Source: Hydrurus foetidus (taxonomy: Eukaryota). Taken from it: DNA of 55,975 nucleotides. Shown in pieces: positions 8,707 through 43,409 of the stretch. The notes under the pieces are model-generated. The model was not told the origin of the DNA, did not search any database, and saw only the letters and a list, made by a program, of their open reading frames with translations. How positions within the stretch are numbered: position 1 is the first letter of the stretch; the number at the start of each line of letters is the position of its first letter. The position numbers and the translations under genes were made by a program. Where the stretch lies: NCBI GenBank assembly GCA_900617105.1, contig UYFQ01000236.1:1-55975 (forward strand). The letters are read 5' to 3'.

Positions 8707-8710
8707 AGGA

Positions 8711-13436: not shown

Positions 13437-14201
13437 ATGGGGAGGCGCATCATATGGCTGCTGTACACTCTAGCTCTTTCCTGCAGTGCCTCATCAGACA
13501 GCGAACAGAAGAGAATACATCAGTTACCTGAAGTGGTAGATCTAGCACGCTCTGATTTCGACACCTTTGCGGTTGGCCCTTCTGCTACAGAAAAACCATC
13601 GGAGAAACCGACACCGTTGCCGACAGCATCACCAACAAGTTTACCGTCTCAAGCGCCTTCAGCGCTTCCCTCCAAGACACCATCGCTCAAACCAACAAAT
13701 GTGCCATCACAAACACCGTCCACTTCGCCCTCGTCGATTCCATCGAGCATACCTTCTCGAAAACCAACGCTTCTGCCCTCAACAAAACCAAGCACAACGC
13801 CGTCAGTTGAACCTACATTGCCGCCATCGCGTGTTCCCTCTAAGGCCCCGTCTGTAGGTCCAACTGAAAAGCCGTCAGCTACGCCATCTTTAATGCCCAC
13901 CCTCAAGCCGACCAAATTACCAACGGATACTCCCTCACTGCTACCCTCTAAGGGACCTTCAGTGTTGCCTTCTCGCGGACTAAGCGTATCACCTACGACG
14001 CTGCCATCGCTTAAACCAACGAACACACCCACATTGAGATCACCGACGCGGCCGCCAACAATTCCTCCAAAAAAGGATGACGAAGGGAAGAAGAAAGACG
14101 ACAAGAACGACAAGAACAATAACGAGAAAGTCAAAGGCATCAGAGAAAGAGCGAATCGAGTCAGAATGAGAGATCGGGGAAGGATCGAGCGTGATGAATA
14201 A
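13437..14201 (+). CDS. N-terminal segment: signal peptide, Pro/Ser/Thr-rich stalk, charged region
   Basis: Hydrophobic leader, then ~160 aa of P(S/T)xx tetrapeptide repeats, then KKDDEGKKKDDK. Confidence 0.8.
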   Translation: MGRRIIWLLYTLALSCSASSDSEQKRIHQLPEVVDLARSDFDTFAVGPSATEKPSEKPTPLPTASPTSLPSQAPSALPSKTPSLKPTNVPSQTPSTSPSSIPSSIPSRKPTLLPSTKPSTTPSVEPTLPPSRVPSKAPSVGPTEKPSATPSLMPTLKPTKLPTDTPSLLPSKGPSVLPSRGLSVSPTTLPSLKPTNTPTLRSPTRPPTIPPKKDDEGKKKDDKNDKNNNEKVKGIRERANRVRMRDRGRIERDE

Positions 14202-17200
14202 GGGTCGAGGATCCGGCGGATCGATCAAAGGCATGTTCCGATCACGCGTCTTCAAACTCAGATCAACTCAATGTCCGGATCAACCCTCCCGCTTTGCGTC
14301 ATGTGTATTCGATCAAGAGATAATATGGCATATGGTTTCGATCAATGATGAGAACAGAAAGAAAAAGGGTGGACGCAGTGGAGAAAGAAGCCTCGATGGT
14401 GGAGACAACAGGCATGGGGAGAAAGATAAGAAGGACAAAGAGAAGAAAGAGAAGAATAAAAAAAAGAAGTCAAGAAACCGAAAAACGTTTACATGCCGAA
14501 TATGGGGACTTGCACAAATTACGCGATTCTAGCTGGTACGACTGTGTCGTTCAAATCCTCTCTCACAGTTTTGTCAAGCGGCTCCATCGGCACATCATCA
14601 AAAGGGACGATTACCGGCAAATACTTGCTGCAAGCAGGCACTGCTCAAATAGACACAGACGCAGTAAAGAAGAGCATAAAAGACTACGTAAATCTCTACT
14701 CTGAAGTTGAAAAACTTGAATGCACAACAAGCCAGTGGTCTCCCGAGCTATCAGATTACACGCTAACACCCGGTATCTACTGCTCCTGTCCTGGAAGTTT
14801 TTCATTAGCCGCATGGAGTTCGTTGATGCTTGACGCGCAGGGTGTGTCGACATCACTGTGGGTACTGCAGAGCACAGGCAGCTTGGTGACAGGCGATCAC
14901 TCGTCTGTGATACTTGTCAACGGTGCGTTATCATCGAATGTGTTCTGGTCAGTGGGCACGACAGCAACACTGGGAGCGTCAAGTTTCTTTGTGGGTCAGA
15001 TTCTTGCTATGACGGATATCGTGGTTGGATCACGGTCAGTGCTGAATGGTCGCGGGTTCACGACGACATCAGTGAAGTTCGAGGGCGGCTCTCTTGTGAG
15101 TCTAAGCGCACAGTATAGTAGTGACAACGTGACGATGGGCAGCAACAGCAAGAAGTTTGCGGTGCTTGCTGGCACATCACTATCATTTGGATCGACTCAG
15201 ACCGTCATATTAAGCGGATCAGTTGGTGTGTTGTCAGGCGCATCAATTACTGGGAAGTATCTTTTACAGAATGGCACAGCCGAGTTGGGTACGTCACTGG
15301 CTATATCTGCAGCAAATGATGTGGCACTCATGTACAACTCTGGATCTACTTTGGTATGTCAGAACTACTTGACGAATGGGGATCTATCGGGTTTGAGTCT
15401 CACACCAGGCGTGTACTGCTCATCGAGCGGGAACTTCAGTATCGGTCAGATGCGATCAGTGGTACTGGACGCACGTAATGAATCAGACGTTTCGTGGGTG
15501 TTCCAGATGACGGGTGATATGGACATGGGAGCTGAGTCGACAGTGATGCTTAAGAACGGAGCATTGGCTGATAATTTGTACTGGATAGTGGGGGGAACTG
15601 CGAATATGGGATATGCATGCTCAGTGGCGGGCACCATTATTGCCCAATCATCGATATTATTTGATCCATATTCTTCCTCTGACGGTCGATTATATTCACT
15701 TTCACGTGTCATGTTTTCTGGTGGCTCCTCAGTGAAGGTGCCTTACGGTTTCTTGAACACTTCACCCGCAGTCCTTCGTCTCTTCTACGGGTTGTCGAGT
15801 AAGTTTGCAATTCTTGCGGGATCTTTCATTCAATTTTGTTCATCTCTGACTTTTTTATCAAGTGGCTCTGTTGGTACTTCCTCTGGTGGTGCTATTACTG
15901 GTACTTATTTCACTCAAGCAGGTACCGCTCAAAAAGGTACTGACCTTGCTATACAGGCAATGAAAGACTACTTGATATTGAACGGTGCAGCATCAGGCGC
16001 CCTTTGTACGGTTGAAAATGCACCTTCCGATCTGGCGGGATTCACTCTAATACCAGGTGTGTACTGTTTTGGACCTTGGCCGTTGGCTTTAGGAACTTGG
16101 TCTTCTCTGACATTTGACGCACAGGATGTGTCGACATCACTGTGGGTACTGCAGAGCACAGGCAGCTTGGTGACAGGCGATCACTCGTCTATGATACTTG
16201 TCAACGGTGCGTTATCATCGAATGTGTTCTGGTCAGTGGGCACGACAGCAACACTGGGAGCGTCAAGTTTCTTTGTGGGTCAGATTCTTGCTATGACGGA
16301 TATCGTGGTTGGAACACAGACAGTGCTGAATGGTCGCGGGTTCACGACGACATCAGTGACGTTCGAGGGCGGCTCTCTTGTGAGTCTGGAAGCGAAGTAC
16401 GGCAGCAGTGATATGACGATGGGCAGCAATTGCAAGAAGTTTGCGGTGCTTGCTGGCACATCACTATCATTTGGATCACGTCAGACCGTCATATCAAGCG
16501 GATCAGTTGGCGTTTTGTCAGGCTCAATCATCACTGGCAACTACACTCTGAACGGTGCACAACATAACATCATCGCATCAGCAGCCTCTTATGAGCGATA
16601 TGGCACTCATGTACAACTCTGGATCTACTTTGGTATGTCAGAACTACTTGACGAATGGGGATCTATCAGGTGTGAGTCTTGCACCAGGCGTGTACTGCTC
16701 ATCGAGCGGGAACTTCAGTATCGGTCAGATGCGATCAGTGGTACTGGACGCGCGTAATGTGTCAGGAGCGACATGGGTGTTCCAGATGACGGGCAATATG
16801 ACGATGGGAGCTGAGTCGACAGTGATTCTGAAGAACGGAGCATTGGCTGCGAATGTGTATTGGATAGTGGGGGGAACTGCGAATATGGGGTATGGTAGCT
16901 CAGTGATGGGCACCATTATTGCCCAATCATCGATATCAGTTGGACCGTATGCGACTGTGGACGGTCGTGCTTTGTCTGTGTCTGATGTTTCATTTGGCGG
17001 TGGATCTTTGATGAAGGTACCTGACGGCATATCGACATCTGTGCAGCCTAGTCTACGACTGTATCTTGGCAGCGCTGCAAAGTTCATGGTGCTTGCGGGC
17101 ACGACAGTAACATTCGGATCACCGCTGGTGGTGTTAGCAAGCGGGTCTGTCGGTACATCATCAGGAGGCGCCATCACCGGCGACTACTTACTGCAAGCAG

Positions 17201-20200
17201 GCATACTCGAAAAAGGCACGACTGCAGCGAAGAATGGCATGAATGACTACTTGATAGTGAACGGCGCAGCGTCAGGCGCTCTTTGTACGTCATCTCTGAG
17301 TACGGGCAGTCTCTCAGGCGTCACACTGACACCTGGTGTGTACTGCTCCGGATCCTCTGCATTTACGTTAGGCGCATGGAAGTCGCTGACGCTTGACGCG
17401 CAGGGTGTGTCGACATCACTGTGGGTACTGAAGAGCACTGGCAGCTTGGTGACAGGCGATCACTCGTCTGTGATACTTGTCAACGGTGCGTTATCATCGA
17501 ATGTGTTCTGGTCAGTGGGCACGACAGCAACACTGGGAGCGTCAAGTTTCTTTGTGGGTCAGATTCTTGCTATGACGGATATCGTGGTTGGATCACGGTC
17601 AGTGCTGAATGGTCGCGGATTCACGACGACATCAGTGAAGTTCGAGGGCGGCTCTCTTGTGAGTCTGGAAGCGAAGTACGGCAGCAGCGATATGACGATG
17701 GGCAGCGATAGCAAGAAGTTTGCGGTGCTTGCTGGCACATCACTATCATTTGGATCACGTCCGACCGTCATATCAAGCGGATCAGTTGGTGTGTTGTCCG
17801 GCGCAAGCATCACAGGCAACTACTCATTGCTGGAGGGTACATCCCAGTACGGAACACGTTTATCGAAATCTGCTGCCAGCGATATGGCACTCATGTACAA
17901 CTCTGGATCTACTTTGGTATGTCAGAACTACTTGACGAATGGGGATCTATCAGGTGTCAGTCTTGCACCAGGCGTGTACTGCTCATCGAGCGGGAACTTC
18001 AGTATCGGTCAGATGCGATCAGTGGTACTGGACGCGCGTAATGTGTCAGGAGCGACATGGGTGTTCCAGATGACGGGTAATATGACGATGGGAGCTGAGT
18101 CGACAGTGATTCTGAAGAACGGAGCATTGGCTGCGAATGTGTATTGGATAGTGGGGGGAACTGCGAATATCGGATATGCATGCTCAGTGATGGGCACCAT
18201 TATTGCCCAATCATCGATATCAGTTGGACCGTATGCGACTGTGGACGGTCGTGCTTTGTCTGTGTCTGACGTTTCATTTGGCGGTGGATCTTTGATGAAG
18301 GTACCTGACGGCATATCGACATCTGTGCAGCCTAGTCTACGACTGTATCTTGGCAGCGCTGCAAAGTTCATGGTGCTTGCGGGCACGACAGTAACATTCG
18401 GATCACCGCTGGTGGTGTTAGCAAGCGGGTCTGTCGGTACATCATCAGGAGGCGCCATCACCGGCGACTACTTACTGCAAGCAGGCATACTCGAAAAAGG
18501 CACGACTGCAGCGAAGAATGGCATGAGTGACTACTTGATAGTGAACGGCGCAGCGTCAGGCGCTCTTTGTACGTCATCTCTGAGTACGGGCAGTCTGTCA
18601 GGCGTCACACTGACACCTGGTGTGTACTGCTCCGGATCCGCTGCACTGACGTTAGGCGCATGGAGGTCGCTGACGCTTGACGCGCAGGGTGTGTCGACAT
18701 CACTGTGGGTACTGAAGAGCACTGGCAGCTTGGTGACAGGCGATCACTCGTCTGTGATACTTGTCAACGGTGCGTTATCATCGAATGTGTTCTGGTCAGT
18801 GGGCACGACAGCAACACTGGGAGCGTCAAGTTTCTTTGTGGGTCAGATTCTTGCTATGACGGATATCGTGGTTGGATCACGGTCTGTGCTAAATGGTCGC
18901 GGGTTCACGACGACATCAGTGAAGTTCGAGGGCGGCTCTCTTGTGAGTCTGAGTGCGAAGTACGGCAGCAGTGATATGACGATGGGCAGCAACAGCAAGA
19001 AGTTTGCGGTGCTTGCTGGCACATCACTATCATTTGGATCACGTCCGACCGTCATATCAAGCGGATCAGTTGGTGTGTTGTCAGGCTCAATCATCACTGG
19101 CAACTACACTCTGCAGAACGGTACAACTGAGCTGACATCGCTGTCAGCAGAACTTGCTGCCAGCGATATTGCACTCATGTACAACTCTGGATCTACTTTG
19201 GTATGTCAGAACTACTTGACGAATGGGGATCTATCAGGTGTGAGTCTTGCACCAGGCGTGTACTGCTCATCGAGCGGGAACTTCAGTATCGGTCAGATGC
19301 GATCAGTGGTACTGGACGCGCGTAATGTGTCAGGAGCGACATGGGTGTTCCAGATGACGGGTAATATGACGATGGGAGCTGAGTCGACAGTGATTCTGAA
19401 GAACGGAGCATTGGCTGCGAATGTGTATTGGATAGTGGGGGGAACTGCGAATATGGGATATGCGAGCTCCTTGATGGGCACCATTATTGCCCAATCATCG
19501 ATATCAGTTGGACCGTATGCGACTGTGGACGGTCGTGCTTTGTCTGTGTCTGACGTTTCATTTGGCGGTGGATCTTTGATGAAGGTACCTGACGGCATAT
19601 CGACATCTGTGCAGCCTAGTCTACGACTGTATCTTGGCAGCGCTGCAAAGTTCATGTTTTAGGCGCACGACAGTAACATTCGGATCACCGCTGGTGGTGT
19701 TAGCAAGCGGGTCTGTCGGTACATCATCAGGAGGCGCCATCACCGGCGACTACTTACTGCAAGCAGGCATACTGAAATAGGCACGACTGCAGCGAAGAAT
19801 GGCATGAATGACTACTTGATAGTGAACGGCGCAGCGTCAGGCGCTCTTTGTACGTCATCTCTGAGTACGGGCAGTCTCTCAGGCATCACACTGACACCTG
19901 GTGTGTACTGCTCCGAATTTCTGGATTTGATGGTGAGCGCATGGAAATCGCTGACGCTTGACGCGCAGGGTGTGTCGACATCACTGTGGGTACTGAAGAG
20001 CACTGGCAGCTTGGTGACAGGCGATCACTCGTCTGTGATACTTGTCAACGGTGCGTTATCATCGAATGTGTTCTGGTCAGTGGGCACGACAGCAACACTG
20101 GGAGCGTCAAGTTTCTTTGTGGGTCAGATTCTTGCTATGACGGATATCGTGGTTGGATCACGGTCAGTGCTGAATGGTCGCGGGTTCACGACGACATCAG

Positions 20201-23200
20201 TGAAGTTCGAGGGCGGCTCTCTTGTGAGTCTGGAAGCGAAGTACGGCAGCAGTGATATGACGATGGGCAGCAACAGCAAGAAGTTTGCGGTGCTTGCTGG
20301 CACATCACTATCATTTGGATCACGTCCGACCGTCATATCAAGCGGATCAGTTGGTGTGTTGTCAGGCTCAATCATCACAGGCAACTACACGCTGCTGAAG
20401 GGTACAACCCAGTACGGAACACTTTTATCGAAATCTGCTTCCAGCGATATGGCACTCATGTACAACTCTGGATCTACTTTGGTATGTCAGAACTACTTGA
20501 CGAATGGGGATCTATCAGGTGTCAGTCTTGCACGAGGCGTGTACTGCTCATCGAGCGGGAACTTCAGTATCGGTCAGATGCGATCAGTGGTACTGGACGC
20601 GCGTAATGTGTCAGGAGCGACATGGGTGTTCCAGATGACGGGCAATATGACGATGGGAGCTGAGTCGACAGTGATTCTGAAGAACGGAGCATTGGCTGCG
20701 AATGTGTATTGGATAGTGGGGGGAACTGCGAATATGGGATATGCGAGCTCAGTGATGGGCACCATTATTGCCCAATCATCGATATCAGTTGGACCGTACG
20801 CGACTGTGGACGGTCGTGCTTTGTCTGTGTCTGACGTTTCATTTGGCGGTGGATCTTTGATGAAGGTACCTGACGGCATATCGACATCTGTGCAGCCTAG
20901 TCTACGACTGTATCTTGGCAGCGCTGCAAAGTTCATGATACTTGCGGGCACGACAGTAACATTCGGATCACCGCTGGTGGTGTTAGCAAGCGGGTCTGTC
21001 GGCACATCATCAGGAGGCGCCATCACCGGCGACTACTTACTGCAAGCAGGCATACTCGAAAGGCACGACTGCAGCGAAGAATGGCATGAAGGACTACTTG
21101 ATAGTGAACGGCGCAGCGTCAGGCGCTCTTTGTACGTCATCTCTGAGTACGGGCAGTCTGTCAGGCGTCACACTGACACCTGGTGTGTACTGCTCCGGAT
21201 CCGCTGCACTGACGATAGGCGCATGGAGGTCGCTGACGCTTGACGCGCAGGGTGTGTCGACATCACTGTGGGTACTGAAGAGCACAGGCAGCTTGGTGAC
21301 AGGCGATCACTCGTCTGTGATACTTGTCAACGGTGCGTTATCATCGAATGTGTTCTGGTCAGTGGGCACGACAGCAACACTGGGAGCGTCAAGTTTCTTT
21401 GTGGGTCAGATTCTTGCTATGACGGATATCGTGGTTGGATCACGGTCTGTGCTGAATGGTCGCGGGTTCACGACGACATCAGTGACGTTCGAGGGCGGCT
21501 CTCTTGTGAGTCTGGAAGCGAAGTACGGCAGCAGTGATATGACGATGGGCAGCAATTGCAAGAACTTTGCGGTGCTTGCTGGCACATCACTATCATTTGG
21601 ATCACGTCAGACCGTCATATCAAGCGGATCAGTTGGTGTGTTGTCTGGCGCAAGCATTCCGGGCAACTACACGCTGCTGAAGGGTACAACCCAGTATGGA
21701 ACACTTTTATCGAAATCTGCATCAAGTGATGTGGCACTCATGTACAACTCTGGATCTACTTTGGTATGTCAGAACTACTTGACGAATGGGGATCTATCAG
21801 GTGTGAGTCTTGCACCAGGCGTGTACTGCTCATCGAGCGGGAAGTTCAGTATCGGTCAGATGCGATCAGTGGTACTGGACGCGCGTAATGTGTCAGGAGC
21901 GACATGGGTGTTCCAGATGACGGGTACTATGACGATGGGAGCTGAGTCGACAGTGATTCTGAAGAACGGAGCATTGTCTGCGAATGTGTATTGGATAGTG
22001 GGGGGAACTGCGAATATGGGATATGCGAGCTCAGTGATGGGCACCATTATTGCCCAATCATCGATATCAGTTGGACCGTATGCGACTGTGGACGGTCGTG
22101 CTTTGTCTGTGTCTGACGTTTCATTTGGCGGTGGATCTTTGATGAAGGTACCTGACGGCATATCGACATCTGTGCAGCCTAGTCTACGACTGTATCTTGG
22201 CAGCGCTGCAAAGTTCATGATACTTGCGGGCACGACAGTAACATTCGGATCACCGCTGGTGGTGTTAGCAAGCGGGTCTGTCGGCACATCATCAGGAGGC
22301 GCCATCACCGGCGACTACTTACTGCAAGCAGGCATACCCGAAATAGGCACGACTGCAGCGAAGAATGGCATGAAGGACTACTTGATAGTGAACGGCGCAG
22401 CATCAGGCGCTCTTTGTACGTCATCTCTGAGTACGGGCAGTCTGTCAGGCGTCACACTGACACCTGGTGTGTACTGCTCCGGATCCGCTGCACTGACGAT
22501 AGGCGCATGGAGGTCGCTGACGCTTGACGCGCAGGGTGTGTCGACATCACTGTGGGTACTGAAGAGCACAGGCAGCTTGGTGACAGGCGATCACTCGTCT
22601 GTGATACTTGTCAACGGTGCGTTATCATCGAATGTGTTCTGGTCAGTGGGCACGACAGCAACACTGGGAGCGTCAAGTTTCTTTGTGGGTCAGATTCTTG
22701 CTATGACGGATATCGTGGTTGGATCACGGTCTGTGCTGAATGGTCGCGGGTTCACGACGACATCAGTGACGTTCGAGGGCGGCTCTCTTGTGAGTCTGGA
22801 AGCGAAGTACGGCAGCAGTGATATGACGATGGGCAGCAATAGCAAGAAGTTTGCGGTGCTTGCTGGCACATCACTATCATTTGGATCACGTCAGACCGTC
22901 ATATCAAGCGGATCAGTTGGTGTGTTGTCAGGCTCAATCATCACTGGCAACTACTCTCTGCAGAACGGCACAACCATAACATCATCGCCATCTTTAATAT
23001 CTGCTACCAGCGATATGGCACTCATGTACAACTCTGGATCTACTTTGGTATGTCAGAACTACTTGACGAATGGGGATCTATCAGGTGTCAGTCTTGCACG
23101 AGGCGTGTACTGCTCATCGAGCGGGAACTTCAGTATCGGTCAGATGCGATCAGTGGTACTGGACGCGCGTAATGTGTCAGGAGCGACATGGGTGTTCCAG

Positions 23201-26200
23201 ATGACGGGTACTATGACGATGGGAGCTGAGTCGACAGTGATTCTGAAGAACGGAGCATTGTCTGCGAATGTGTATTGGATAGTGGGAGGAACTGCGAATA
23301 TGGGATATGCGAGCTCCTTGATGGGCACCATTATTGCCCAATCATCGATATCAGTTGGACCGTACGCGACTGTGGACGGTCGTGCTTTGTCTGTGTCTGA
23401 CGTTTCATTTGGCGGTGGATCTTTGATGAAGGTACCTGACGGCATATCGACATCTGTGCAGCCTAATCTACGACTGTATCTTGGCAGCGCTGCAAAGTTC
23501 ATGATACTTGCAGGCACGACAGTAACATTCGGATCACCGCTGGTGGTGTTAACAAGCGGGTCTGTCGGTACATCATCAGGAGGCGCCATCACCGGCGACT
23601 ACTTACTGCAAGCAGGCATACCCGAAATAGGCACGACTGCAGCGAAGAATGGCATGAAGGACTACTTGATAGTGAACGGCGCAGCGTCAGGCGCTCTTTG
23701 TACGTCATCTCTGAGTACGGGCAGTCTGTCAGGCGTCACACTGACACCTGGTGTGTACTGCTCCGGATCCGCTGCACTGACGATAGGCGCATGGAGGTCG
23801 CTGACGCTTGACGCACAGGGTGTGTCGACATCACTGTGGGTACTGAAGAGCACTGGCAGCTTGGTGACAGGCGATCACTCGTCTGTGGTACTTGTCAACG
23901 GTGCGTTATCATCGAATGTGTTCTGGTCAGTGGGCACGACAGCAACACTGGGAGCGTCAAGTTTCTTTGTGGGTCAGATTCTTGCTATGACGGATATCGT
24001 GGTTGGATCACGGTCTGTGCTGAATGGTCGCGGGTTCACGACGACATCAGTGGCGTTCGAGGGCGGCTCTCTTGTGAGTTTGGAAGCGAAGTACGGCAGC
24101 AGTGATATGACGATGGGCAGCAATTGCAAGAAGTTTGCGGTGCTTGCTGGCACATCACTATTATTTGGATCACGTCAGACCGTCATATCAAGCGGATCAG
24201 TTGGCGTTTTGTCAGGTTCAATCATCACTGGCAACTACTCTCTGCAGAACGGCACAACCATAACATCATCGCCATCTTTAATATCTGCTGCCAGCGATAT
24301 GGCACTCATGTACAACTCTGGATCTACTTTGGTATGTCAGAACTACTTGACGAATGGGGATCTATCAGGTGTGAGTCTTGCACCAGGCGTGTACTGCTCA
24401 TCGAGCGGGAAGTTCAGTATCGGTCAGATGCGATCAGTGGTACTGGACGCGCGTAATGTGTCAGGAGCGACATGGGTGTTCCAGATGACGGGTACTATGA
24501 CGATGGGAGCTGAGTCGACAGTGATTCTGAAGAACGGAGCATTGTCTGCGAATGTGTATTGGATAGTGGGGGGAACTGCGAATATGGGATATGCGAGCTC
24601 AGTGATGGGCACCATTATTGCCCAATCATCGATATCAGTTGGACCGTATGCGACTGTGGACGGTCGTGCTTTGTCTGTGTCTGACGTTTCATTTGGCGGT
24701 GGATCTTTGATGAAGGTACCTGACGGCATATCGACATCTGTGCAGCCTAGTCTACGACTGTATCTTGGCAGCGCTGCAAAGTTCATGGTACTTGCGGGCA
24801 CGACAGTAACATTCGGATCACCGCTGGTGGTGTTAGCAAGCGGGTCTGTCGGTACATCATCAGGAGGCGCCATCACCGGCGACTACTTACTGCAAGCAGG
24901 CATACTCGAAATAGGCACGACTGCAGCGAAGAATGGCATGAATGACTACTTGATAGTGAACGGCGCAGCGTCAGGCGCTCTTTGTACGTCATCTCTGAGT
25001 ACGGGCAGTCTGTCAGGCGTCACACTGACACCTGGTGTGTACTGCTCCGGATCCTCTGCATTAACATTAGGCGCATGGAGGTCGCTGACGCTTGACGCGC
25101 AGGGTGTGTCGACATCACTGTGGGTACTGAAGAGCACTGGCAGCTTGGTGACAGGCGATCACTCGTCTGTGATACTTGTCAACGGTGCGTTATCATCGAA
25201 TGTGTTCTGGTCAGTGGGCACGACAGCAACACTGGGAGCGTCAAGTTTCTTTGTGGGTCAGATTCTTGCTATGACGGATATCGTGGTTGGATCACGGTCT
25301 GTGCTAAATGGTCGCGGGTTCACGACGACATCAGTGACGTTCGAGGGCGGCTCTCTTGTGAGTCTGGAAGCGAAGTACGGCAGCAGTGATATGACGATGG
25401 GCAGCAACAGCAAGAAGTTTGCGGTGCTTGCTGGCACATCACTATCATTTGGATCACGTCAGACCGTCATATCAAGCGGATCAGTTGGTGTGTTGTCAGG
25501 CTCAATCATCACTGGCAACTACACTCTGCAGAACGGCACAACCATAACATCATCGCCATCTTTAATATCTGCTACCAGCGATATGGCACTCATGTACAAC
25601 TCTGGATCTACTTTGGTATGTCAGAACTACTTGACGAATGGGGATCTATCAGGTGTCAGTCTTGCACGAGGCGTGTACTGCTCATCGAGCGGGAAGTTCA
25701 GTATCGGTCAGATGCGATCAGTGGTACTGGACGCGCGTAATGTGTCAGGAGCGACATGGGTGTTCCAGATGACGGGCAATATGACGATGGGAGCTGAGTC
25801 GACAGTGATTCTGAAGAACGGAGCATTGGCTGCGAATGTGTATTGGATAGTGGGGGGAGCTGCGAATATGGGGTATGCATGCTCAGTGATGGGCACCATT
25901 ATTGCCCAATCATCGATATCAGTTGGACCGTATGCGACTGTGGACGGTCGTGCTTTGTCTGTGTCTGACGTTTCATTTGGCGGTGGATCTTTGATGAAGG
26001 TACCTGACGGCATATCGACATCTGTGCAGCCTAGTCTACGACTGTATCTTGGCAGCGCTGCAAAGTTCATGGTACTTGCGGGCACGACAGTAACATTCGG
26101 ATCACCGCTGGTGGTGTTAGCAAGCGGGTCTGTCGGTACATCATCAGGAGGCGCCATCACCGGCGACTACTTACTGCAAGCAGGCATACTCGAAAAAGGC

Positions 26201-32200: not shown

Positions 32201-35200
32201 CGGGTAATATGACGATGGGAGCTGAGTCGACAGTGATTCTGAAGAACGGAGCATTGGCTGCGAATGTGTATTGGATAGTGGGGGGAACTGCGAATATGGG
32301 ATATGCATGCTCAGTGATGGGCACCATTATTGCCCAATCATCGATATCAGTTGGACCGTATGCGACTGTGGACGGTCGTGCTTTGTCTGTGTCTGACGTT
32401 TCATTTGGCGGTGGATCTTTGATGAAGGTACCTGACGGCATATCGACATCTGTGCAGCCTAGTCTACGACTGTATCTTGGCAGCGCTGCAAAGTTCATGT
32501 ACTTGCGGGCACGACAGTAACATTCGGATCACCGCTGGTGGTGTTAGCAAGCGGGTCTGTCGGCACATCATCAGGAGGCGCCATCACCGGCGACTACTTA
32601 CTGCAAGCAGGCATACTCGAAAGGCACGACTGCAGCGAAGAATGGCATGAAGGACTACTTGATAGTGAACGGCGCAGCGTCAGGCGCTCTTTGTACGTCA
32701 TCTCTGAGTACGGGCAGTCTGTCAGGCGTCACACTGACACCTGGTGTGTACTGCTCCGGATCCGCTGCACTGACGATAGGCGCATGGAGGTCGCTGACGC
32801 TTGACGCGCAGGGTGTGTCGACATCACTGTGGGTACTGAAGAGCACTGGCAGCTTGGTGACAGGCGATCACTCGTCTGTGATACTTGTCAACGGTGCGTT
32901 ATCATCGAATGTGTTCTGGTCAGTGGGCACGACAGCAACACTGGGAGCGTCAAGTTTCTTTGTGGGTCAGATTCTTGCTATGACGGATATCGTGGTTGGA
33001 TCACGGTCTGTGCTGAATGGTCGCGGGTTCACGACGACATCAGTGACGTTCGAGGGCGGCTCTCTTGTGAGTCTGGAAGCGAAGTACGGCAGCAGTGATA
33101 TGACGATGGGCAGCAATAGCAAGAAGTTTGCGGTGCTTGCTGGCACATCACTATCATTTGGATCACGTCAGACCGTCATATCAAGCGGATCAGTTGGTGT
33201 GTCACCAGGCACAATCATCACTGGCAACTACACTCTGCAGAACGGTACAAGAGAGTTGCCACCATCTGAGTTAGCTAAGCTAGCTGCCAGCGATATGGCA
33301 CTCATGTACAACTCTGGATCTACTTTGGTATGTCAGAACTACTTGACGAATGGGGATCTATCAGGTGTCAGTCTTGCACCAGGCGTGTACTGCTCATCGA
33401 GCGGGAAGTTCAGTATCGGTCAGATGCGATCAGTGGTACTGGACGCGCGTAATGCGTCAGGAGCGACATGGGTGTTCCAGATGACGGGTAATATGACGAT
33501 GGGAGCTGAGTCGACAGTGATTCTGAAGAACGGAGCATTGGCTGCGAATGTGTATTGGATAGTGGGGGGAGCTGCGAATATGGGATATGCAAGCTCAGTG
33601 ATGGGCACCATTATTGCCCAATCATCGATATCAGTTGGACCGTATGCGACTGTGGACGGTCGTGCTTTGTCTGTGTCTGACGTTTCATTTGGCGGTGGAT
33701 CTTTGATGAAGGTACCTGACGGCATATCGACATCTGTGCAGCCTAGTCTACGACTGTATCTTGGCAGCGCTGCAAAGTTCATGTACTTGCGGGCACGACA
33801 GTAACATTCGGATCACCGCTGGTGGTGTTAGCAAGCGGGTCTGTCGGCACATCATCAGGAGGCGCCATCACCGGCGACTACTTACTGCAAGCAGGCATAC
33901 CCGAAATAGGCACGACTGCAGCGAAGAATGGCATGAATGACTACTTGATAGTGAACGGCGCAGCGTCAGGCGCTCTTTGTACGTCATCTCTGAGTACGGG
34001 CAGTCTGTCAGGCGTCACACTGACACCTGGTGTGTACTGCTCCGGATCCGCTGCACTGACGTTAGGCGCATGGAGGTCGCTGACGCTTGACGCGCAGGGT
34101 GTGTCGACATCACTGTGGGTACTGAAGAGCACTGGCAGCTTGGTGACAGGCGATCACTCGTCTGTGATACTTGTCAACGGTGCGTTATCATCGAATGTGT
34201 TCTGGTCAGTGGGCACGACAGCAACACTGGGAGCGTCAAGTTTCTTTGTGGGTCAGATTCTTGCTATGACGGATATCGTGGTTGGATCACGGTCTGTGCT
34301 GAATGGTCGCGGGTTCACGACGACATCAGTGACGTTCGAGGGCGGCTCTCTTGTGAGTCTGGAAGCGAAGTACGGCAGCAGTGATATGACGATGGGCAGC
34401 AATAGCAAGAACTTTGCGGTGCTTGCTGGCACATCACTATCATTTGGATCACGTCCGACCGTCATATCAAGCGGATCAGTTGGTGTGTCACCAGGCACAA
34501 TCATCACTGGCAACTACACATTGCAGAATGGTACAACCGAGTTACATCCTCTATAGCAATTGGCTGCTGCCAGCGATATGGCACTCATGTACAACTCTGG
34601 ATCTACTTTGGTATGTCAGAACTACTTGACGAATGGGGATCTATCAGGTGTGAGTCTTGCACCAGGCGTGTACTGCTCATCGAGCGGGAAGTTCAGTATA
34701 GGTCAGATGCGATCAGTGGTACTCGATGCACACAACACGTCAGGAGTGACATGGGTGTTCCAGATGACGGGTAATATGTCAACGGAAGCTGAGTCGACAG
34801 TGATTCTGAAGAACGGAGCATTGGCTGCGAATGTGTATTGGATAGTGGGGGGAACTGCGAATATGGGATATGCAAGCTCAGTGATGGGCACCATTATTGC
34901 CCAATCATCGATATCAGTTGGGCCGTATGCGACTGTGGACGGTCGTGCTTGGTCAATATCTGACGTTTCGTTTGGCGGTGGATCTTTGATGAAGGTACCT
35001 GACGGCATATCGACATCTGTGGAGCCTAGCCTTCCGCTATATCTGGGCGCCTCTGTGAACTTCGTAGTACTTGCGGGCACGACAGTAACATTCGGATCGT
35101 CGCTGACGGTGCTAGCAAGCGGGTCTGTCGGCACATCATCAGGAGGCGCCATCACCGGCGACTACTTACTGCAAGCAGGCATACCCGAAATAGGCACGAC

Positions 35201-38200
35201 TGCAGCGAAGAATGGCATGAAGGACTACTTGATATTGAACGGCGCAGCATCAGGCGCTCTTTGTACGTCTAACTCTTAGCACGAGCAGTCTGTCAGGCGT
35301 CACACTGACACCTGGTGTGTACTGCTCCGGATCCGCTGCACTGACGTTAGGCGCATGGAAGTCGCTGACGCTTGACGCGCAGGGTGTGTCGACATCACTG
35401 TGGGTACTGAAGAGCACTGGCAGCTTGGTGACAGGCGATCACTCGTCTGTGATACTTGTCAACGGTGCGTTATCATCGAATGTGTTCTGGTCAGTGGGCA
35501 CGACAGCAACACTGGGAGCGTCAAGTTTCTTTGTGGGTCAGATTCTTGCTATGACGGATATCGTGGTTGGATCACGGTCTGTGCTGAATGGTCGCGGGTT
35601 CACGACGACATCAGTAACGTTCGAGGGCGGCTCTCTTGTGAGTTTGGAAGCGAAGTACGGCAGCAGTGATATGACGATGGGCAGCAATAGCAAGAAGTTT
35701 GCGGTGCTTGCTGGCACATCACTATTATTTGGATCACGTCAGACCGTCATATCAAGCGGATCAGTTGGTGTGTCACCAGGCAATCATCACTGGCAACTAC
35801 ACTCTGCAGAACGGTACAACCATAACATCATCGCCATCTAGCGATATCTGCTGCCAGCGATATGGCACTCATGTACAACTCTGGATCTACTTTGGTATGT
35901 CAGAACTACTTGACGAATGGGGATCTATCAGGTGTGAGTCTTGCACCAGGCGTGTACTGCTCATCGAGCGGGAAGTTCAGTATCGGTCAGATGCGATCAG
36001 TGGTACTGGACGCGCGTAATGTGTCAGGAGCGACATGGGTGTTCCAGATGACGGGTAATATGACGATGGGAGCTGAGTCGACAGTGATTCTGAAGAACGG
36101 AGCATTGGCTGCGAATGTGTATTGGATAGTGGGGGGAACTGCGAATATGGGATATGCATGCTCAGTGATGGGCACCATTATTGCCCAATCATCGATATCA
36201 GTTGGACCGTATGCGACTGTGGACGGTCGTGCTTTGTCTGTGTCTGACGTTTCATTTGGCGGTGGATCTTTGATGAAGGTACCTGACGGCATATCGACAT
36301 CTGTGCAGCCTAGTCTACGACTGTATCTTGGCAGCGCTGCAAAGTTCATGGTACTTGCGGGCACGACAGTAACATTCGGATCACCGCTGGTGGTGTTAGC
36401 AAGCGGGTCTGTCGGTACATCATCAGGAGGCGCCATCACCGGCGACTACTTACTGCAAGCAGGCATCCTCGAAAAAGGCACGACTGCAGCGAAGAATGGC
36501 ATGAAGGACTACTTGATAGTGAACGGCGCAGCGTCAGGCGCTCTTTGTACGTCATCTCTGAGTACGGGCAGTCTGTCAGGCGTCACACTGACACCTGGTG
36601 TGTACTGCTCCGGATCCGCTGCACTGACGTTAGGCGCATGGAGGTCGCTGACGCTTGACGCGCAGGGTGTGTCGACATCACTGTGGGTACTGAAGAGCAC
36701 TGGCAGCTTGGTGACAGGCGATCACTCGTCTGTGATACTTGTCAACGGTGCGTTATCATCGAATGTGTTCTGGTCAGTGGGCACGACAGCAACACTGGGA
36801 GCGTCAAGTTTCTTTGTGGGTCAGATTCTTGCTATGACGGATATCGTGGTTGGATCACGGTCTGTGCTGAATGGTCGCGGGTTCACGACGACATCAGTGA
36901 ACGTTCGAGGGCGGCTCTCTTGTGAGTCTGGAAGCGAAGTACGGCAGCAGTGATATGACGATGGGCAGCAATAGCAAGAAGTTTGCGGTGCTTGCTGGCA
37001 CATCACTATCATTTGGATCACGTCAGACCGTCATATCAAGCGGATCAGTTGGTGTGTCACCAGGCAAATCATCACTGGCAACTACACTCTGCAGAACGGT
37101 ACAACCATGAGTTGGCATCCGATCTAGCGATATCTGCTGCCAGCGATATGGCACTCATGTACAACTCTGGATCTACTTTGGTATGTCAGTATTATATGAC
37201 GAATGGGGATCTATCAGGTGTCAGTCTTGCACCAGGCGTGTACTGCTCATCGAGCGGCAAGTTCACTGTCGGTCAGATGCGATCAGTGGTACTGGACGCG
37301 CGTAATGTGTCAGGAGCGACATGGGTGTTCCAGATGACGGGTAATATGACGATGGGAGCTGAGTCGACAGTGATTCTGAAGAACGGAGCATTGGCTGCGA
37401 ATGTGTATTGGATAGTGGGGGGAACTGCGAATATCGGATATGCGAGCTCAGTGATGGGCACCATTATTGCCCAATCATCGATATCAGTTGGACCGTATGC
37501 GACTGTGGACGGTCGTGCTTGGTCAATATCTGACGTTTCATTTGGCGGTGGATCTTTGATGAAGGTACCTGACGGCATATCGACATCTGTGGAGCCTAGT
37601 CTTCCGCTATATCTGGGCGCCTCTGTGAACTTCGTAGTACTTGCGGGCACGACAGTAACATTCGGATCGTCGCTGACGGTGCTAGCAAGCGGGTCTGTCG
37701 GCACATCATCAGGAGGCGCCATCACCGGTAACTACCTGCTTGAGGACGGTACTCCTCAGGAAGGCACGCCTGATGCGATACAGGCCATGAAGGACTACTT
37801 GATAGTGAACGGCGCAGCGTCAGGCGCTCTTTGTACGTCATCTCTGAGTACGGGCAGTCTGTCAGGCGTCACACTGACACCTGGTGTGTACTGCTCCGGA
37901 TCCGCTGCACTGACGTTAGGCGCATGGGCGTCGCTGACGCTTGACGCGCAGGGTGTGTCGACATCACTGTGGGTACTGAAGAGCACTGGCAGCTTGGTGA
38001 CAGGCGATCACTCGTCTGTGATACTTGTCAACGGTGCGTTATCATCGAATGTGTATTGGTCAGTGGGCACGACAGCAACACTGGGAGCGTCAAGTTTCTT
38101 TGTGGGTCAGATTCTTGCTATGACGGATATCGTGGTTGGATCACGGTCTGTGCTGAATGGTCGCGGGTTCACGACGACATCAGTAACGTTCGAGGGCGGC

Positions 38201-41200
38201 TCTCTTGTGAGTCTGGAAGCGAAGTACGGCAGCAGCGATATGACGATGGGCAGCAATAGCAAGAACTTTGCGGTGCTTGCTGGCACATCACTATCATTTG
38301 GATCACGTCAGACCGTCATATCAAGCGGATCAGTTGGTGTGTCACCAGGCTCAATCATCACTGGCAACTACACTCTGCAGAACGGCACAACCGAAATATC
38401 GACATATTAGCGATTCTGCCAATGACGATATGGCACTCATGTACAACTCCGGATCTACTTTGGTATGTCAGAACTACTTGACAAACGAAGATCTATCGGG
38501 TTTGAGTCTTGCACGAGGCGTGTACTGCTCATCGAGCGGGAAGTTCAGTATCGGTCAGATGCGATCAGTCGTACTGGACGCGCGAAATGTGTCAGGAGCG
38601 ACATGGGTGTTCCAGATGACGGGCAATATGACGATGGGAGCTGAGTCGACAGTGATTCTGAAGAACGGAGCATTGGCTGCGAATGTGTATTGGATAGTGG
38701 GGGGAACTGCGAATATCGGATATGCGAGCTCAGTGATGGGCACCATTATCGCCCAATCATCGATATCAGTTGGACCGTATGCGACTGTGGACGGTCGTGC
38801 TTTGTCTGTGTCTGATGTTTCATTTGGCGGCGGATCTTTGATGAAGGTACCTGACGGCATATCGACATCTGTGCAGCCTAGTCTACGACTGTATCTTGGC
38901 AGCGCTGCAAAGTTCATGGTGCTTGCGGGCACGACAGTAACATTCGGATCACCGCTGGTGGTGTTAGCAAGCGGGTCTGTCGGCACATCATCAGGAGGCG
39001 CCATCACCGGCGACTACTTACTGCAAGCAGGGACTGCTCAGGAAGGCACGCATGATGCGATACAGGCTATGAAGGACTACTTGATAGTGAACGGCGCAGC
39101 GTCAGGCGCTCTTTGTACGTCATCTCTGAGTACGGGCAGTCTGTCAGGCGTCACACTGACACCTGGTGTGTACTGCTCCGGATCCGCTGCATTGACGTTG
39201 GGCATGGAGTCGCTGACGCTTGACGCGCAGGGTGTGTCGACATCACTGTGGGTACTGAAGAGCACTGGCAGCTTGGTGACAGGCGATCACTCGTCTGTGA
39301 TACTTGTCAACGGTGCGTTATCATCGAATGTGTTCTGGTCAGTGGGCACGACAGCAACACTGGGAGCGTCAAGTTTCTTTGTGGGTCAGATTCTTGCTAT
39401 GACGGATATCGTGGTTGGATCACGGTCTGTGCTGAATGGTCGCGGGTTCACGACGACATCAGTAACGTTCGAGGGCGGCTCTCGGGTGAGTCTGGAAGCT
39501 CAGTACGGCAGCAGTGATATGACGATGGGCAGCAATAGCAAGAAGTTTGCGGTGCTTGCTGGCACATACTATCTTTGGATCAGATCAGACCGTCATATCA
39601 AGCGGATCAGTTGGTGTGTCACCAGGCAAACTTGTCACTGGCAACTATTTGCTATTGAACGGCACAACTGAATTGTCAACGTTTGTAGCCTCTTCAGCTA
39701 CTCAGGAGCTGCCGCATGTACAACTCTGGATCTACTTTGGTATGTCAGAACTACTTGACCAATGGGTCTATCAGGTGCTGAGTCTTGCACCAGGCGTGTA
39801 CTGCTCATCGAGCGGGAAGTTCAGTATCGGTCAGATGCGATCAGTGGTACTGGACGCGCGTAATGTGTCAGGAGCGACATGGGTGTTCCAGATGACGGGT
39901 AATATGACGATGGGAGCTGAGTCGACAGTGATTCTGAAGAACGGAGCATTGTCTGCGAATGTGTATTGGATAGTGGGGGGAGCTGCGAATATGGGATATG
40001 GAAGCTCAGTGATGGGCACCATTATTGCCCAATCATCGATATCAGTTCCGTATGCGACTGTGGACGGTCGTGCTTTGTCGAGTCGTTTGTTCGATTCGAA
40101 GGATCTTTCTGAAAAAACCTAACGGCATATCGACATCTGTGCAGCCTAGCCTACGCTGCATCTGGGCGCATCGCTGAAGTTCGTGCTACTTGCGGGCACG
40201 ACAGTAACATTCGGATCACCGCTGGTGGTGCTAGCAAGCGGGTCTGTCGGTACATCATCAGGAGGCGCCATCACCGGCGACTACTTGCTTGAGGAGGCAA
40301 GCTCTTCGAGGCACTCCTGCAACGATGAAGGCCATGGATGACTACTTGATAGTGAACGGCGCAGCATCAGGCGCTCTTTGTACGTCATCTCTGAGTACGG
40401 ACAGTCTGTCAGGCGTCACACTGACACCTGGTGTGTACTGCTCTGGATCCGCTGGCATTGACTCTGGGCGCATGGACGTCGCTGACGCTTGACGCGCAGG
40501 GTGTGTCGACATCACTGTGGGTACTGAAGAGCACTGGCAGCTTGGTGACAGGCGATCACTCGTCTGTGATACTTGTCAACGGTGCGTTATCATCGAATGT
40601 GTTCTGGTCAGTGGGCACGACAGCAACACTGGGAGCGTCAAGTTTCTTTGTGGGTCAGATTCTTGCTATGACGGATATCGTGGTTGGATCACGGTCAGTG
40701 CTTAATGGTCGCGGGTTCACAACGGACATCAGTGACGTTTGAGGGCGGCTCTCTACTCACACAGGTGTCTGACTCTGCTGATCAGCAAGAGATCTCCGGA
40801 TGACCCAATATTCAAAAAGGGTAGCATTTGCGTGATATCTTCGATTAATTCTAGATTCAACCAGGGTCTCTGGTCTGGAACCGATGCATCACAGGCCATG
40901 ACAGAGGCTATCGCCATCTCAATGGGAGTACCTGTCACTTCCGTTCAGTGCGGATTTGCAAGTCAACTTTGTTTGTCATCTCCTACCGCGGCACCATCTT
41001 ACCGACCGAGAAAAACTTCAAAACCTACCGCATCGACAACACGCGAACCGTCGAGAAACAAATTTGCCTCCCAGTCAACCGACGAATTCCATCCGGACAT
41101 GAGGTCTTTGGCTGCACCGACTCGAGAGCTTTCGTTCTCCATCTTCCGAGAAGTTCCAGGTGAGTCAATTGTATTGTCTTATTTTGCAAATGACTCTTTC

Positions 41201-42186
41201 TCAAACCTACTCCCATATCTGCTTACGTTAACCAAGGCAATGCATCAGCTGCAAGCGTGGCGCTGATAACGGATTCTATCAAACTGCTAGTCAAAAAGGC
41301 AATGACAAGTACCACATTGTGCAAAGTCTTTGTTGATCGCGCGTTCACCCTCAATGTGACATTCCTAATGAATGCTGGGGGCGTCGCAGATGCCGGCACG
41401 GTGTGTACTGAAGAACCTGTGTTCACTGTCATATACACACCTGGCGGCACAAACCAGCCAACATCACAGCCGTCATCCCAACCGAGCTCCGCACCCACGT
41501 CGTCGCATAGACACAAACTTAAACTGGTCACCAGTGGGTTTATCGGGTTTTTAGTAATTGTCGCATTTATCTGGTTTTTGAGATTCTATCCGGCACTACT
41601 CGCGATCATAATGAAGAAGGAGGAAGAAAAACCGGCCCACTTATACGACATTCTTGTCGTCATTAGTGAAGACGAGGAGGCCATTCTTGAGAACATTAAA
41701 CATCAAGACATCGCTTTCTATAGACGCACCAATGTTGAGGATCCCTCACAATCCCTGAGATGGACCATGAACGCTACATCAGATGTTCTTGAGAAGCGTT
41801 TCGAAGTGCAGTTCCTCGATCACTTTGACCTCTTGGGAGACAGCGGACCGAAAGCGGAGAACAAGGCCGATGCCGTGGATCACTCAGTCATCGGGGACAA
41901 ACTTGTCACCAAAGAAGTTTATGTCCACGACGCTGGGTTGCAAATGGGCATGATCATCAAGGTGAAGCCATACTACCCAGTAGATGTCATACCGCCTGAA
42001 AAAGCAGAAGCAACTCCCAGCAATCGGTCCTATCCAGGACGCGTGCCATTCGACACAGGCGCGAAATCCCCTTTAGGCCGTCGATTTGACGGACCTAAAA
42101 ATAGCGACAGACGTCCTTTCGCCAGGGAAGAGTCTGACATGAGCATTGGTAGCTCAATCACAGAAGCTACCAAAAATAAGCATTGA
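13437..42186 (+). CDS. Giant type I membrane protein with 41 tandem DUF3494 ice-binding-like domains (~9,500 aa, broken by frameshifts in this assembly)
   Basis: Signal peptide MGRRIIWLLYTLALSCSASS, then PSxxPT stalk and K/D-rich linker. An A8 to A9 correction at 14458-14465 joins the linker to the array. Repeated FAVLAG...LTPGVYC...LDA...NGA...NVFW.VG..ATLG...G.ILA...GR domains. Intron from 41160 to 41236 or 41248. TM LVTSGFIGFLVIVAFIWFL. Stop at 42186. The junction near 14170-14200 is unresolved. Confidence 0.85.
14493..40760 (+). repeat. Coding tandem array, ~1284-bp (428-aa) unit, 20.5 units = 21 A-type + 20 B-type DUF3494 domains
   Basis: The A-domain marker TCACTGTGGGTACTG recurs 21 times from ~14855 to ~40515 at ~1284-bp spacing. 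21086-31999 is an uninterrupted 3637-aa ORF. Confidence 0.95.
41160..41248 (+). other. Spliceosomal intron in the C-terminal module
   Basis: CAG|GTGAGT donor, pyrimidine-rich body, TTAAC branch-like motif. In-frame acceptors AAG (41236) or CAG (41248). Conserved in the copies at 45221 and 49268. Confidence 0.85.
41237..42186 (+). CDS. Last exon of the giant gene: juxtamembrane domain, short stalk, TM helix, cytoplasmic tail
   Basis: QPTSQPSSQPSSAPTS stalk, 19-aa hydrophobic segment followed by R and KKEEEK, then a ~190-aa tail. Confidence 0.88.
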
Positions 42187-43202: not shown

Positions 43203-43409
43203 GGCGGCGGAGTGTTGTCTAAAATAATCACGTCATGGTCAAAAACCGATAGGGGGAGGGGGGGGAGGGGGGGGGATTTTCACGAAACTTTTTAGTTTTC
43301 GCGCAACTTAATAGCTCTATAAATTACGGTTTTCATTCAATTTCCGCGAAGTAAATCGGTAAAAACGACCTCGAAAAACTTTTCGGTGAAACGGAAAATC
43401 GAAAAATCG
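43203..43409. other. Foreign spacer at duplication junction 1, possible DNA-transposon end
   Basis: Absent after the third copy (51301). Begins (CAG)GGCGGCGGAGTG, contains a G tract and CG/AAAA motifs, and fuses to mid-domain DUF3494 sequence at GGGAG. Confidence 0.6.

What the first reader, a model, noticed from the sequence alone, without database searches (positions are those of the whole stretch)
13437..42186. Roughly 1-MDa membrane-anchored protein with 41 tandem ice-binding (DUF3494) domains
Seen: a signal peptide, a stalk, 21 A + 20 B DUF3494-type domains in a continuous 26-kb array, one TM helix and a tail. Established: DUF3494 ice-binding proteins typically carry one or a few domains and are secreted or tethered. 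Inference: a eukaryotic type I membrane protein built almost entirely of ice-binding domains could act as a long, highly multivalent ice adhesin, an ice-structuring coat, or an ice nucleator through its large cumulative binding surface. I do not know of a described protein with this architecture.
Basis: partly seen in the sequence, partly recalled or inferred. Interest (0 to 1): 0.95.

Follow-up and report, generated by a model that had tools for sequence, protein, structure and literature searches.

The report
Giant surface protein, 41 ice-binding domains
A eukaryotic microbe carries a transcribed 29-kb stretch with 41 tandem copies of a known ice-binding-type domain between a predicted secretion signal and a predicted membrane anchor; it likely encodes one ~0.95-MDa cell-surface protein that would grip ice through many weak contacts.

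Summary
The 41 PF11999/DUF3494 domains (21 A + 20 B) are there, fused head to tail. Short-read DNA depth fits the count (21.8x single-locus depth against 21.2 copies). The window is NOT one open frame: it has 25 frame switches, one in-frame stop and a 280-nt insert in the leader. Most look like assembly errors. 17 of 21 breaks sit at letters that vary between units, and reads lack the leader insert and the two last breaks. PolyA RNA covers leader, array and tail on the sense strand and splices a 77-nt intron before the TM exon. One transcript spanning all of it is not shown. The membrane-side module, TM helix and a new cytoplasmic domain form a conserved family (29 relatives); five relatives join DUF3494 domains to that module. 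The most domains in any collected protein was 7; a published prokaryote survey found 3. The predicted ice face is Ser/Thr-rich with bulky residues, so single domains probably bind weakly. Best reading: a ~9,500-aa membrane-tethered ice coat or adhesin working by avidity (0.5). Ice activity is untested. The scan had no look-alike on other DNA.

The parts
13437..13517 (+). Start codon and predicted signal peptide (hydrophobic N-terminus)
   Evidence: Translation; hydropathy; sense RNA from the 13268-13451 bin in X22. SignalP not run.
13518..14137 (+). Pro/Thr/Ser-rich disordered segment followed by a Lys/Asp/Glu-rich segment; lies at the distal (N-terminal) tip
   Evidence: PF04886 PT, E 9.7e-10; translation
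14138..14417 (+). 280-nt insert that breaks the frame; likely an assembly artefact or a variant private to this assembly
   Evidence: Replaced by 6 nt in DNA contigs X1 and X2 (depth 109) and in 3 RNA reads of X22, 0 of X23. DNA depth inside is 9.8 against about 110. Ends are not GT..AG. The read-supported form gives 946 aa with no stop.
14514..40760 (+). Array of 41 DUF3494/PF11999 domains, A-B-A-...-A (21 A, 20 B), linkers about 12-16 aa; 25 frame switches and 1 stop in this assembly
   Evidence: DNA depth check
20987..31999 (+). Longest uninterrupted ORF: 3,670 aa with 17 fused PF11999 domains
40787..41159 (+). First half of a conserved Cys-bearing membrane-side module with a PT-rich insertion; no Pfam family
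   Evidence: Five relatives at 42-56% identity, each directly after a DUF3494 domain; Pfam blank apart from a weak PT match
41160..41236 (+). 77-nt GT..AG intron; its position appears conserved in relatives
   Evidence: 48 + 55 spliced RNA reads, unspliced in DNA contigs. Five relatives lose similarity at this point, and many tail relatives begin just after it.
41237..41523 (+). Second half of the membrane-side module (two invariant Cys in a 12-row alignment) and a short PT linker
41524..41610 (+). Single predicted transmembrane helix
   Evidence: KD 2.49; helix 99-127 with pLDDT 86-89 in blocks 101-120
41635..41973 (+). Conserved, mostly beta cytoplasmic domain (about 110 aa) of no known family
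   Evidence: 18 of the 23 invariant columns of the 30-row alignment fall here. No Pfam or PDB sequence match. Weak Tudor-like structural match, Z 6.1, rmsd 2.1, 49 aligned: inconclusive.
41974..42186 (+). Variable disordered C-terminal tail and stop codon; RNA continues to about 42650
43203..47263 (+). Truncated copy 2: about 210 nt of a high-copy genomic repeat joined to the end of an A domain, then B, A, membrane module, intron, TM and tail, all in frame
   Evidence: repeat depth 3,000-6,000 in DNA
47264..51302 (+). Truncated copy 3: same junction, 97% identical to copy 2, differences mostly synonymous (30 against 13 codons)

Best explanation
The 29-kb stretch likely encodes one ~9,500-residue type I membrane protein whose 41 DUF3494 domains would form a long, brush-like surface coat that is predicted to hold the cell to ice, or shape the ice touching it, by adding up many weak contacts. 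Shown: the domains, their in-frame fusion over 17 domains, sense polyA transcription of leader, array and tail, the spliced TM exon, read support for both end joins, and a conserved family for the membrane end. Inferred: that the inner frame breaks are consensus errors from mixing near-identical units; secretion and surface display; a brush-like layout (first and last coils of this fold lie side by side, PMC11645318, and the linkers are only 12-16 aa); and weak ice binding per domain made up for by avidity. The A/B pair is older than the expansion, which multiplied the 1284-nt AB unit by tandem duplication.
For: Count: 41 by Pfam and by two motifs. One DNA contig over the conserved A core has 21.8x single-locus depth against 21.2 copies in the window; two B-segment contigs give 13.0x and 11.2x against 9 and 12 exact copies. 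Breaks as errors: 17 of 21 lie within 3 nt of a column that varies among intact units (background 35%, p 2e-5), and several read as hybrids of two unit variants. The extra bases at 40727 and 40785 are absent from 22/22, 16/16, 41/41 and 34/34 RNA reads and from both DNA contigs. At 16551-16562, 10/10 and 4/4 RNA reads differ from the window and no DNA contig matches it. The leader joins in frame in two studies. RNA depth is about 3-5 on leader and unique 5' domains and up to 100-147 on a collapsed AB unit, which fits tens of units per leader. Family: 29 tail relatives at 41-98% identity; five relatives with the domain-to-module join; A and B clades shared across organisms (B 98, A 94 SH-aLRT, quick tree). 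Best PDB sequence matches are ice-binding proteins 5UYT and 6EIO (E about 1e-17). The predicted second b-face row is 66% Thr/Ser. In IBPv, two unequal domains act together (PMC5673226, passages).
Against: No read or contig spans the array, and most of the 25 breaks were not tested locus by locus because short reads from all units pile together. One RNA indel points the other way: a T put in at 17291 (12 of 85 and 2 of 54 reads) matches the break at 35270 in kind, and no compensating deletion was listed. That break is also 21 nt from any variable column. Reads at the last two breaks could come from the clean truncated copies. The leader join rests on 3 RNA reads, and the extra base at 14457 on 3 of 3 reads in X23, 0 of 1 in X22 and one DNA contig. 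Tail RNA depth (27-78) is roughly 10-20x the leader's, which fits 3' bias but also shorter transcripts. The predicted first b-face row has 14% Ala and 67% small residues against 40% and 89% in 435 other domains, and carries Asp, Lys, Asn and Ile. Bulky residues there weaken IBPv (PMC5673226), and Ser/Thr in place of Ala marks rock and sediment rather than glacier sequences (PMC12337378, section 23). No search returned a full-length fused relative (weak test). No ice assay exists.
Confidence: 0.5

Rival explanations
1. The same giant membrane protein is real but works as a general surface or matrix adhesin (rock, mineral, polysaccharide), with ice binding weak or incidental.
For: The b-face is Ser/Thr-rich, Ala-poor and partly charged, like rock and sediment DUF3494s (PMC12337378). 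The domain occurs in many ice-free habitats (PMC6892780, PMC11645318).
Against: In Chrysophyceae PF11999 is the domain most enriched in cryosphere taxa (10.64898/2026.10.27.762293, passages), though this organism's group was not determined. The Thr/Ser second row is kept. My column mapping is by motif, not from a structure.
Confidence: 0.22
2. The locus is a decaying or partly broken gene: some breaks are real, so it yields shorter secreted multi-domain proteins or nothing, and the tail RNA comes from the truncated copies.
For: 25 frame switches and 1 stop; the T-insertion reads; identical breaks recur in different units; two truncated 3' copies exist, tail DNA depth is 1.9x single-locus, and copy-3-type 3' variants are in about 10-20% of tail RNA reads. 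Unit variants are 36 synonymous against 57 non-synonymous, only moderate constraint.
Against: Breaks cluster at unit-variable letters. The end breaks tested are absent from reads. An 11-kb stretch is clean. Leader and unique 5' domains are transcribed. The terminal region diverged under purifying selection (30 synonymous against 13 non-synonymous).
Confidence: 0.15
3. The protein is a membrane-bound precursor: the ectodomain is cut at the membrane-side module or at linkers and released as a soluble multi-domain antifreeze into the surrounding gel.
For: The membrane-side module has a variable, basic, PT-rich loop between conserved halves, a layout that recalls self-cleaving SEA domains (recalled, not tested). 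Known algal DUF3494 proteins are secreted (PMC6892780).
Against: No SEA match in Pfam or the Atlas. Inter-domain linkers are short, with no obvious repeated cleavage motif. A highly conserved cytoplasmic domain argues for a job while attached.
Confidence: 0.08
4. The array is an ice nucleator: many aligned ice-like faces build a template large enough to start freezing outside the cell.
For: Large cumulative surface (41 domains); the general link between template size and nucleation (recalled).
Against: Each solenoid is a separate small face on a 12-16 aa linker, not a continuous template, and the faces carry bulky and charged residues. The search on DUF3494 and ice nucleation listed 2 papers, neither with such a claim in title or abstract start.
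Confidence: 0.05

Closest known systems
DUF3494 / IBP-1 fold ice-binding proteins (Pfam PF11999; e.g. EfcIBP 6EIO, Kremastochrysopsis austriaca IBP1-3)
   Same: Same domain family; signal peptide; intron-free domain coding.
   Different: K. austriaca IBPs are 246-247 aa with one domain and no anchor (PMC6892780, parts 1-3 of 5 read). Here there are 41 domains, a TM helix and a cytoplasmic domain.
IBPv (PDB 5UYT), two-domain DUF3494 protein, and prokaryotic double/triple-domain IBPs
   Same: Tandem pair of unequal domains A and B; top PDB hit; domains reported to act together (PMC5673226, passages).
   Different: Two domains, bacterial. An Arctic survey of 3,869 prokaryotic IBPs found up to three domains, and only 0.44% of double-domain IBPs had both signal peptide and TM helix (PMC9957290, passages).
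MpIBP, the 1.5-MDa ice adhesin of Marinomonas primoryensis
   Same: Megadalton, cell-anchored, repeat-built surface protein linked to ice (PMC5550230, outline and abstract).
   Different: About 120 Ig-like extender domains project one non-DUF3494 ice-binding region through bacterial type I secretion. Here the repeated unit is itself the ice-binding-type domain, on a eukaryotic single-pass anchor.
Polarella glacialis tandem DUF3494 gene blocks
   Same: Massive tandem amplification of DUF3494 coding sequence in an alga (PMC7245778, passages).
   Different: Separate single-exon genes with intergenic spacers, most encoding only the domain. Here the units are fused in frame with no spacer, start or stop between them.
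SfIBP_1 of Shewanella frigidimarina (PDB 6BG8)
   Same: DUF3494 domain proposed as a tethered ice adhesin (title seen in a reference list; PDB hit; details recalled).
   Different: One ice-binding domain on beta-sandwich extenders in a bacterium.

Membership tests
DUF3494 / PF11999 ice-binding proteins | Sequence match to PF11999 above the curated cut-off | tested here: met
   All 14 array ORFs score 81-1685 bits against a cut-off of 28.7; 41 stretches in total
DUF3494 / PF11999 ice-binding proteins | Discontinuous triangular beta-solenoid braced by an alpha-helix | tested here: inconclusive
   The single-sequence model has mean pLDDT 46, short strands but no helix. PDB sequence hits to 25 solved members, best E 1.6e-17, support the fold by homology.
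DUF3494 / PF11999 ice-binding proteins | Flat b-face with a row of small residues (Ala/Gly) and a row of Thr/Ser | tested here: inconclusive
   Second row 66% Thr/Ser; first row 67% small and only 14% Ala, against 89% and 40% elsewhere. 26 window domains examined, mapped by motif.
DUF3494 / PF11999 ice-binding proteins | Ice activity (thermal hysteresis, recrystallisation inhibition, ice shaping) | not testable with these tools
   Needs a bench assay
DUF3494 / PF11999 ice-binding proteins | Induction by cold or ice | not testable with these tools
   One RNA sample (X22 = X23), growth conditions not given
Type I single-pass membrane protein | N-terminal signal peptide and one TM helix in one reading frame | tested here: inconclusive
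   Both ends join in frame in reads and the array has no second TM-grade segment (best KD 1.8). The full frame and a single transcript are not shown; SignalP and DeepTMHMM were not available.
RTX-type ice adhesin (MpIBP) | Ig-like extender repeats, RTX repeats, type I secretion signal | tested here: not met
   Pfam finds PF11999 and PT only; Big_11 is below its cut-off with 0 passing stretches. The gene is eukaryotic and spliced. A resemblance in how it works remains possible.
Tandem single-domain gene block (Polarella type) | Separate genes, each with start, stop and spacer | tested here: not met
   17 domains in one 3,670-aa ORF with 12-16 aa linkers
SEA-like self-cleaving juxtamembrane domain | Ferredoxin-like fold with a cleavage loop | tested here: inconclusive
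   No Pfam or Atlas support; the two halves could not be folded together

The most novel reading that the evidence does not exclude
A previously undescribed family of eukaryotic ice-contact receptors. A tunable number of DUF3494 domains (as few as 2 in one partial relative, about 41 here) sits on a conserved membrane-side module, a TM helix and a conserved cytoplasmic domain, so the cell both grips ice by avidity and senses that contact inside.
Probability: 0.2. Interest if true: 0.9.

Novelty: new variant of a known kind. Interest (0 to 1): 0.72.

Why it matters
DUF3494 is the commonest microbial ice-binding domain and is usually seen as a small secreted monomer. A 41-domain, ~0.95-MDa membrane form would be about six times the largest domain count among the proteins collected here (7) and a eukaryotic counterpart to bacterial ice adhesins built on a different plan. 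It makes two questions testable with natural sequence: how ice activity scales with the number of linked domains, and whether algae attach to or sense ice through a surface receptor. The conserved tail marks a whole family that short-read assemblies break up, so similar giants may be hidden in other genomes.

Tried and rejected
No whole genome is held for this window, so paralogs elsewhere and the organism's group were not checked. A chrysophyte-like alga is my guess from recalled features (PT-repeat linkers, NHL gene, freshwater holders) and comes from no call. Two scans of JGI metagenome contigs for the tail found 0 of 479 and 0 of 396 pattern matches confirmed, so no relative's locus could be read. 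A search for longer fused forms of the tail (964-2750 aa) found none among 7,987 candidates (weak). The single-sequence model of the AB unit was too poor to use. The tail model (pLDDT 52) gave only a weak Tudor-like match. The ESM Atlas gave no usable hit for the cytoplasmic domain and short-chain-dehydrogenase hits with low shared-feature counts for the membrane-side half, which I rejected. Rfam: 0 matches. Summed contig depths over the repeat (2,000-6,500) were not used as copy number because overlapping contigs add up; only single contigs were. Whether the junctions at 43410 and 47457 are real was not settled: no listed contig crosses them, but 635 records were not shown. The tree is a quick tree because the careful one did not finish. 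One search failed on a motif typo and was rerun. Rejected readings: over-expanded assembly (depth fits about 21 units), tandem separate genes, and the 280-nt insert as an intron (no GT..AG, and absent from DNA). Literature: nine searches listed no paper describing such a protein. The library lacks most subscription papers, the Vance 2019 review was not read, and no supplements were read.
Full report
Context. The window is eukaryotic. It holds a chromodomain LTR retrotransposon, MULE and copia remnants and an NHL-repeat gene, the locus has a spliced intron, and DNA reads show two haplotypes (two contigs over 13487-13632 at depth 50 and 62). No whole genome is held. The source organism is coded 'organism A' and its group was not determined.

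The array. Two motif anchors each find 41 domains between 14.7 and 40.6 kb, alternating at about 636 and 648 nt. Pfam PF11999 stretches over the 14 array ORFs add up to 41. So 21 A + 20 B is right. The AB unit is 1284-1287 nt, and all 18 full units differ from each other by 15-160 letters. The first three domains and the last pair are more divergent. The best solved relatives are ice-binding proteins 5UYT and 6EIO, among 25 matches.

The reading frame. In this assembly the gene is not open. There are 25 frame switches and one stop in the array, and a 280-nt insert ends the leader ORF at 14201. The longest clean ORF has 3,670 aa and 17 domains, which already rules out a block of separate single-domain genes.

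Are the breaks real? First, 17 of the 21 breaks between 17080 and 40177 lie within 3 nt of a column that varies among the 9 intact units (background 35%, p 2e-5; break positions set by hand). Several read as hybrids of two unit variants, as expected when reads from different units are mixed during consensus calling. Second, reads: the 280-nt insert is replaced by 6 nt in DNA contigs of X1 and X2 (depth 109) and in 3 RNA reads of X22 (0 in X23). An extra base at 14457 is seen in 3 of 3 X23 reads, 0 of 1 X22 read and one X2 contig. Together these give 946 aa without a stop from the start codon into the array. At 16551-16562, 10 of 10 and 4 of 4 RNA reads differ from the window (these may come from other units) and no contig matches it. 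The extra bases at 40727 and 40785 are missing in 22/22, 16/16, 41/41 and 34/34 RNA reads and in both DNA contigs; without them the last domain runs in frame through the spliced tail to 42186. Against: most inner breaks cannot be tested locus by locus with short reads. A T insertion seen in 12 of 85 and 2 of 54 RNA reads at 17291 resembles the break at 35270, and no compensating deletion was listed. Reads at the last breaks may come from the truncated copies. 39 rows of the indel table were not shown.

Is the count inflated? One X2 contig over the conserved A core has depth 2249, which is 21.8x the single-locus depth (about 103), against 21.2 mean word copies in the window. Two B-segment contigs give 13.0x and 11.2x against 9 and 12 exact copies. 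X1 and X2 may be the window's own source, so this checks the assembly rather than a second individual.

Transcription. Stranded polyA reads (one sample, about 6% of each run read) lie on the sense strand over leader, array and tail. Depth is about 3-5 on the leader and unique 5' domains, up to 100-147 on a collapsed AB unit, and 27-78 on the tail. The intron 41160-41236 is spliced in 48 and 55 reads. This fits one long transcript with 3' bias, but does not show it. If the frame is open the product is about 9,470 aa and 950 kDa.

The 3' copies. Two 4.05-kb copies follow, each starting where a high-copy genomic repeat meets the end of an A domain. They are in frame and carry a cleaner version of the last B-A pair than the main copy. 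They differ from each other by 30 synonymous and 13 non-synonymous codons. Tail DNA depth is 1.9x single-locus, not 3x, so at least one extra copy is real and one may be a misplaced haplotype.

A family. The TM exon has 29 relatives at 41-98% identity, all unnamed or 'hypothetical' metagenomic proteins. Conservation peaks in a ~110-aa cytoplasmic domain with no Pfam or PDB match and only a weak Tudor-like structural score (Z 6.1). Five other proteins (P0138, P0139, P0142, P0168, P0171) run from DUF3494 domains straight into the membrane-side module and lose similarity at the same intron position; P0139 shows two domains after a PT-like stretch and may be partial. In a quick tree of 68 domains the window's B domains group with every-second domains of other organisms (98) and the A domains with the alternate ones (94), so the AB pair predates the expansion. 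Of 282 collected proteins, 243 carry the domain and the highest count is 7. The best 150 of 1.84 billion representatives showed at most 6 matched stretches. Short-read assemblies would break up larger ones.

Mechanism. By family, DUF3494 binds ice on its b-face (PMC6892780, parts 1-3 of 5; PMC5673226, passages). Mapped by motif, the two outward rows in 26 window domains are typically TAASTDS / TTTVTV(T/K) for A and SIKNTSD / STSTNSS for B. The second row is 66% Thr/Ser. The first row has 14% Ala and 67% small residues, against 40% and 89% in 435 other domains. In IBPv a bulky residue in that row weakens binding, and two unequal domains act together. In a metagenome study, Ala in this column marked polar and glacier sequences and Ser/Thr marked rock and sediment (PMC12337378, passages and section 23); that my column equals theirs is inferred. 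Because the first and last coils of the fold lie side by side (PMC11645318, part 1 of 4) and the linkers are 12-16 aa, the domains would hang off a short backbone like a brush. I therefore favour weak binding per domain with high avidity, on a membrane-anchored coat (0.5). Rivals: general adhesin (0.22), broken gene (0.15), shed precursor (0.08), nucleator (0.05).

Known or new. The domain family is known. Prokaryotic IBPs had up to three domains in an Arctic survey (PMC9957290, passages). A chrysophyte's IBPs have one (PMC6892780). Polarella amplifies separate genes (PMC7245778, passages). MpIBP reaches 1.5 MDa with Ig extenders and one ice-binding region (PMC5550230, abstract). Passages of PMC9756366, PMC7783341 and 10.64898/2026.10.27.762293 reported gene-family expansion or two-domain forms, not such an array. 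Nine searches listed nothing like it; subscription papers and supplements were not seen. The scan's own notes had no look-alike by sequence; by words they gave a Naegleria membrane protein with five divergent modules (unchecked).

Verdict. New variant of a known kind; interest 0.72.

Noticed in passing
window 604-5610 (-): Ty3/gypsy-type LTR retrotransposon with RT, RNase H, integrase and a chromodomain, split over several frames.
   Followed up: no
window 7918-8808: Cluster of short direct and inverted repeats (30-nt palindromic units, a 15-nt x 5.5 array, 96-nt pair), perhaps a transposon end.
   Followed up: no
window 10565-12596 (-): MULE transposase remnant just upstream of the gene (PF10551, below cut-off); 12900-13150 is a high-copy repeat (depth about 1,400).
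   Followed up: no
window 43203-43410 and 47264-47457: About 210-nt high-copy element (DNA depth 3,000-6,000, some RNA) sitting exactly at the start of both truncated copies, with a short near-match to the A domain at the join; may have seeded the duplication or a mis-join.
   Followed up: partly
window 14138-14417: The unsupported insert holds 10 GATC sites against 1.7 expected for the window and matches nothing else in it.
   Followed up: partly
window 14070-14490: Strongly Lys/Asp/Glu-rich segment between the PT region and domain A1, at the predicted far tip; possible processing site or mineral-binding patch (speculation).
   Followed up: no
window 52488-53457 (-): NHL/teneurin-type repeat gene over two frames, 174-nt units.
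   Followed up: no
window 55057-55974 (-): Copia-type reverse transcriptase (RVT_2) fragment at the window's end.
   Followed up: no
P0145, P0150, P0154, P0001: Unnamed proteins with 5-7 DUF3494 domains. P0145 and P0150 look secreted and eukaryotic and P0145 and P0154 fall on separate branches, so multi-domain arrays arose more than once.
   Followed up: partly
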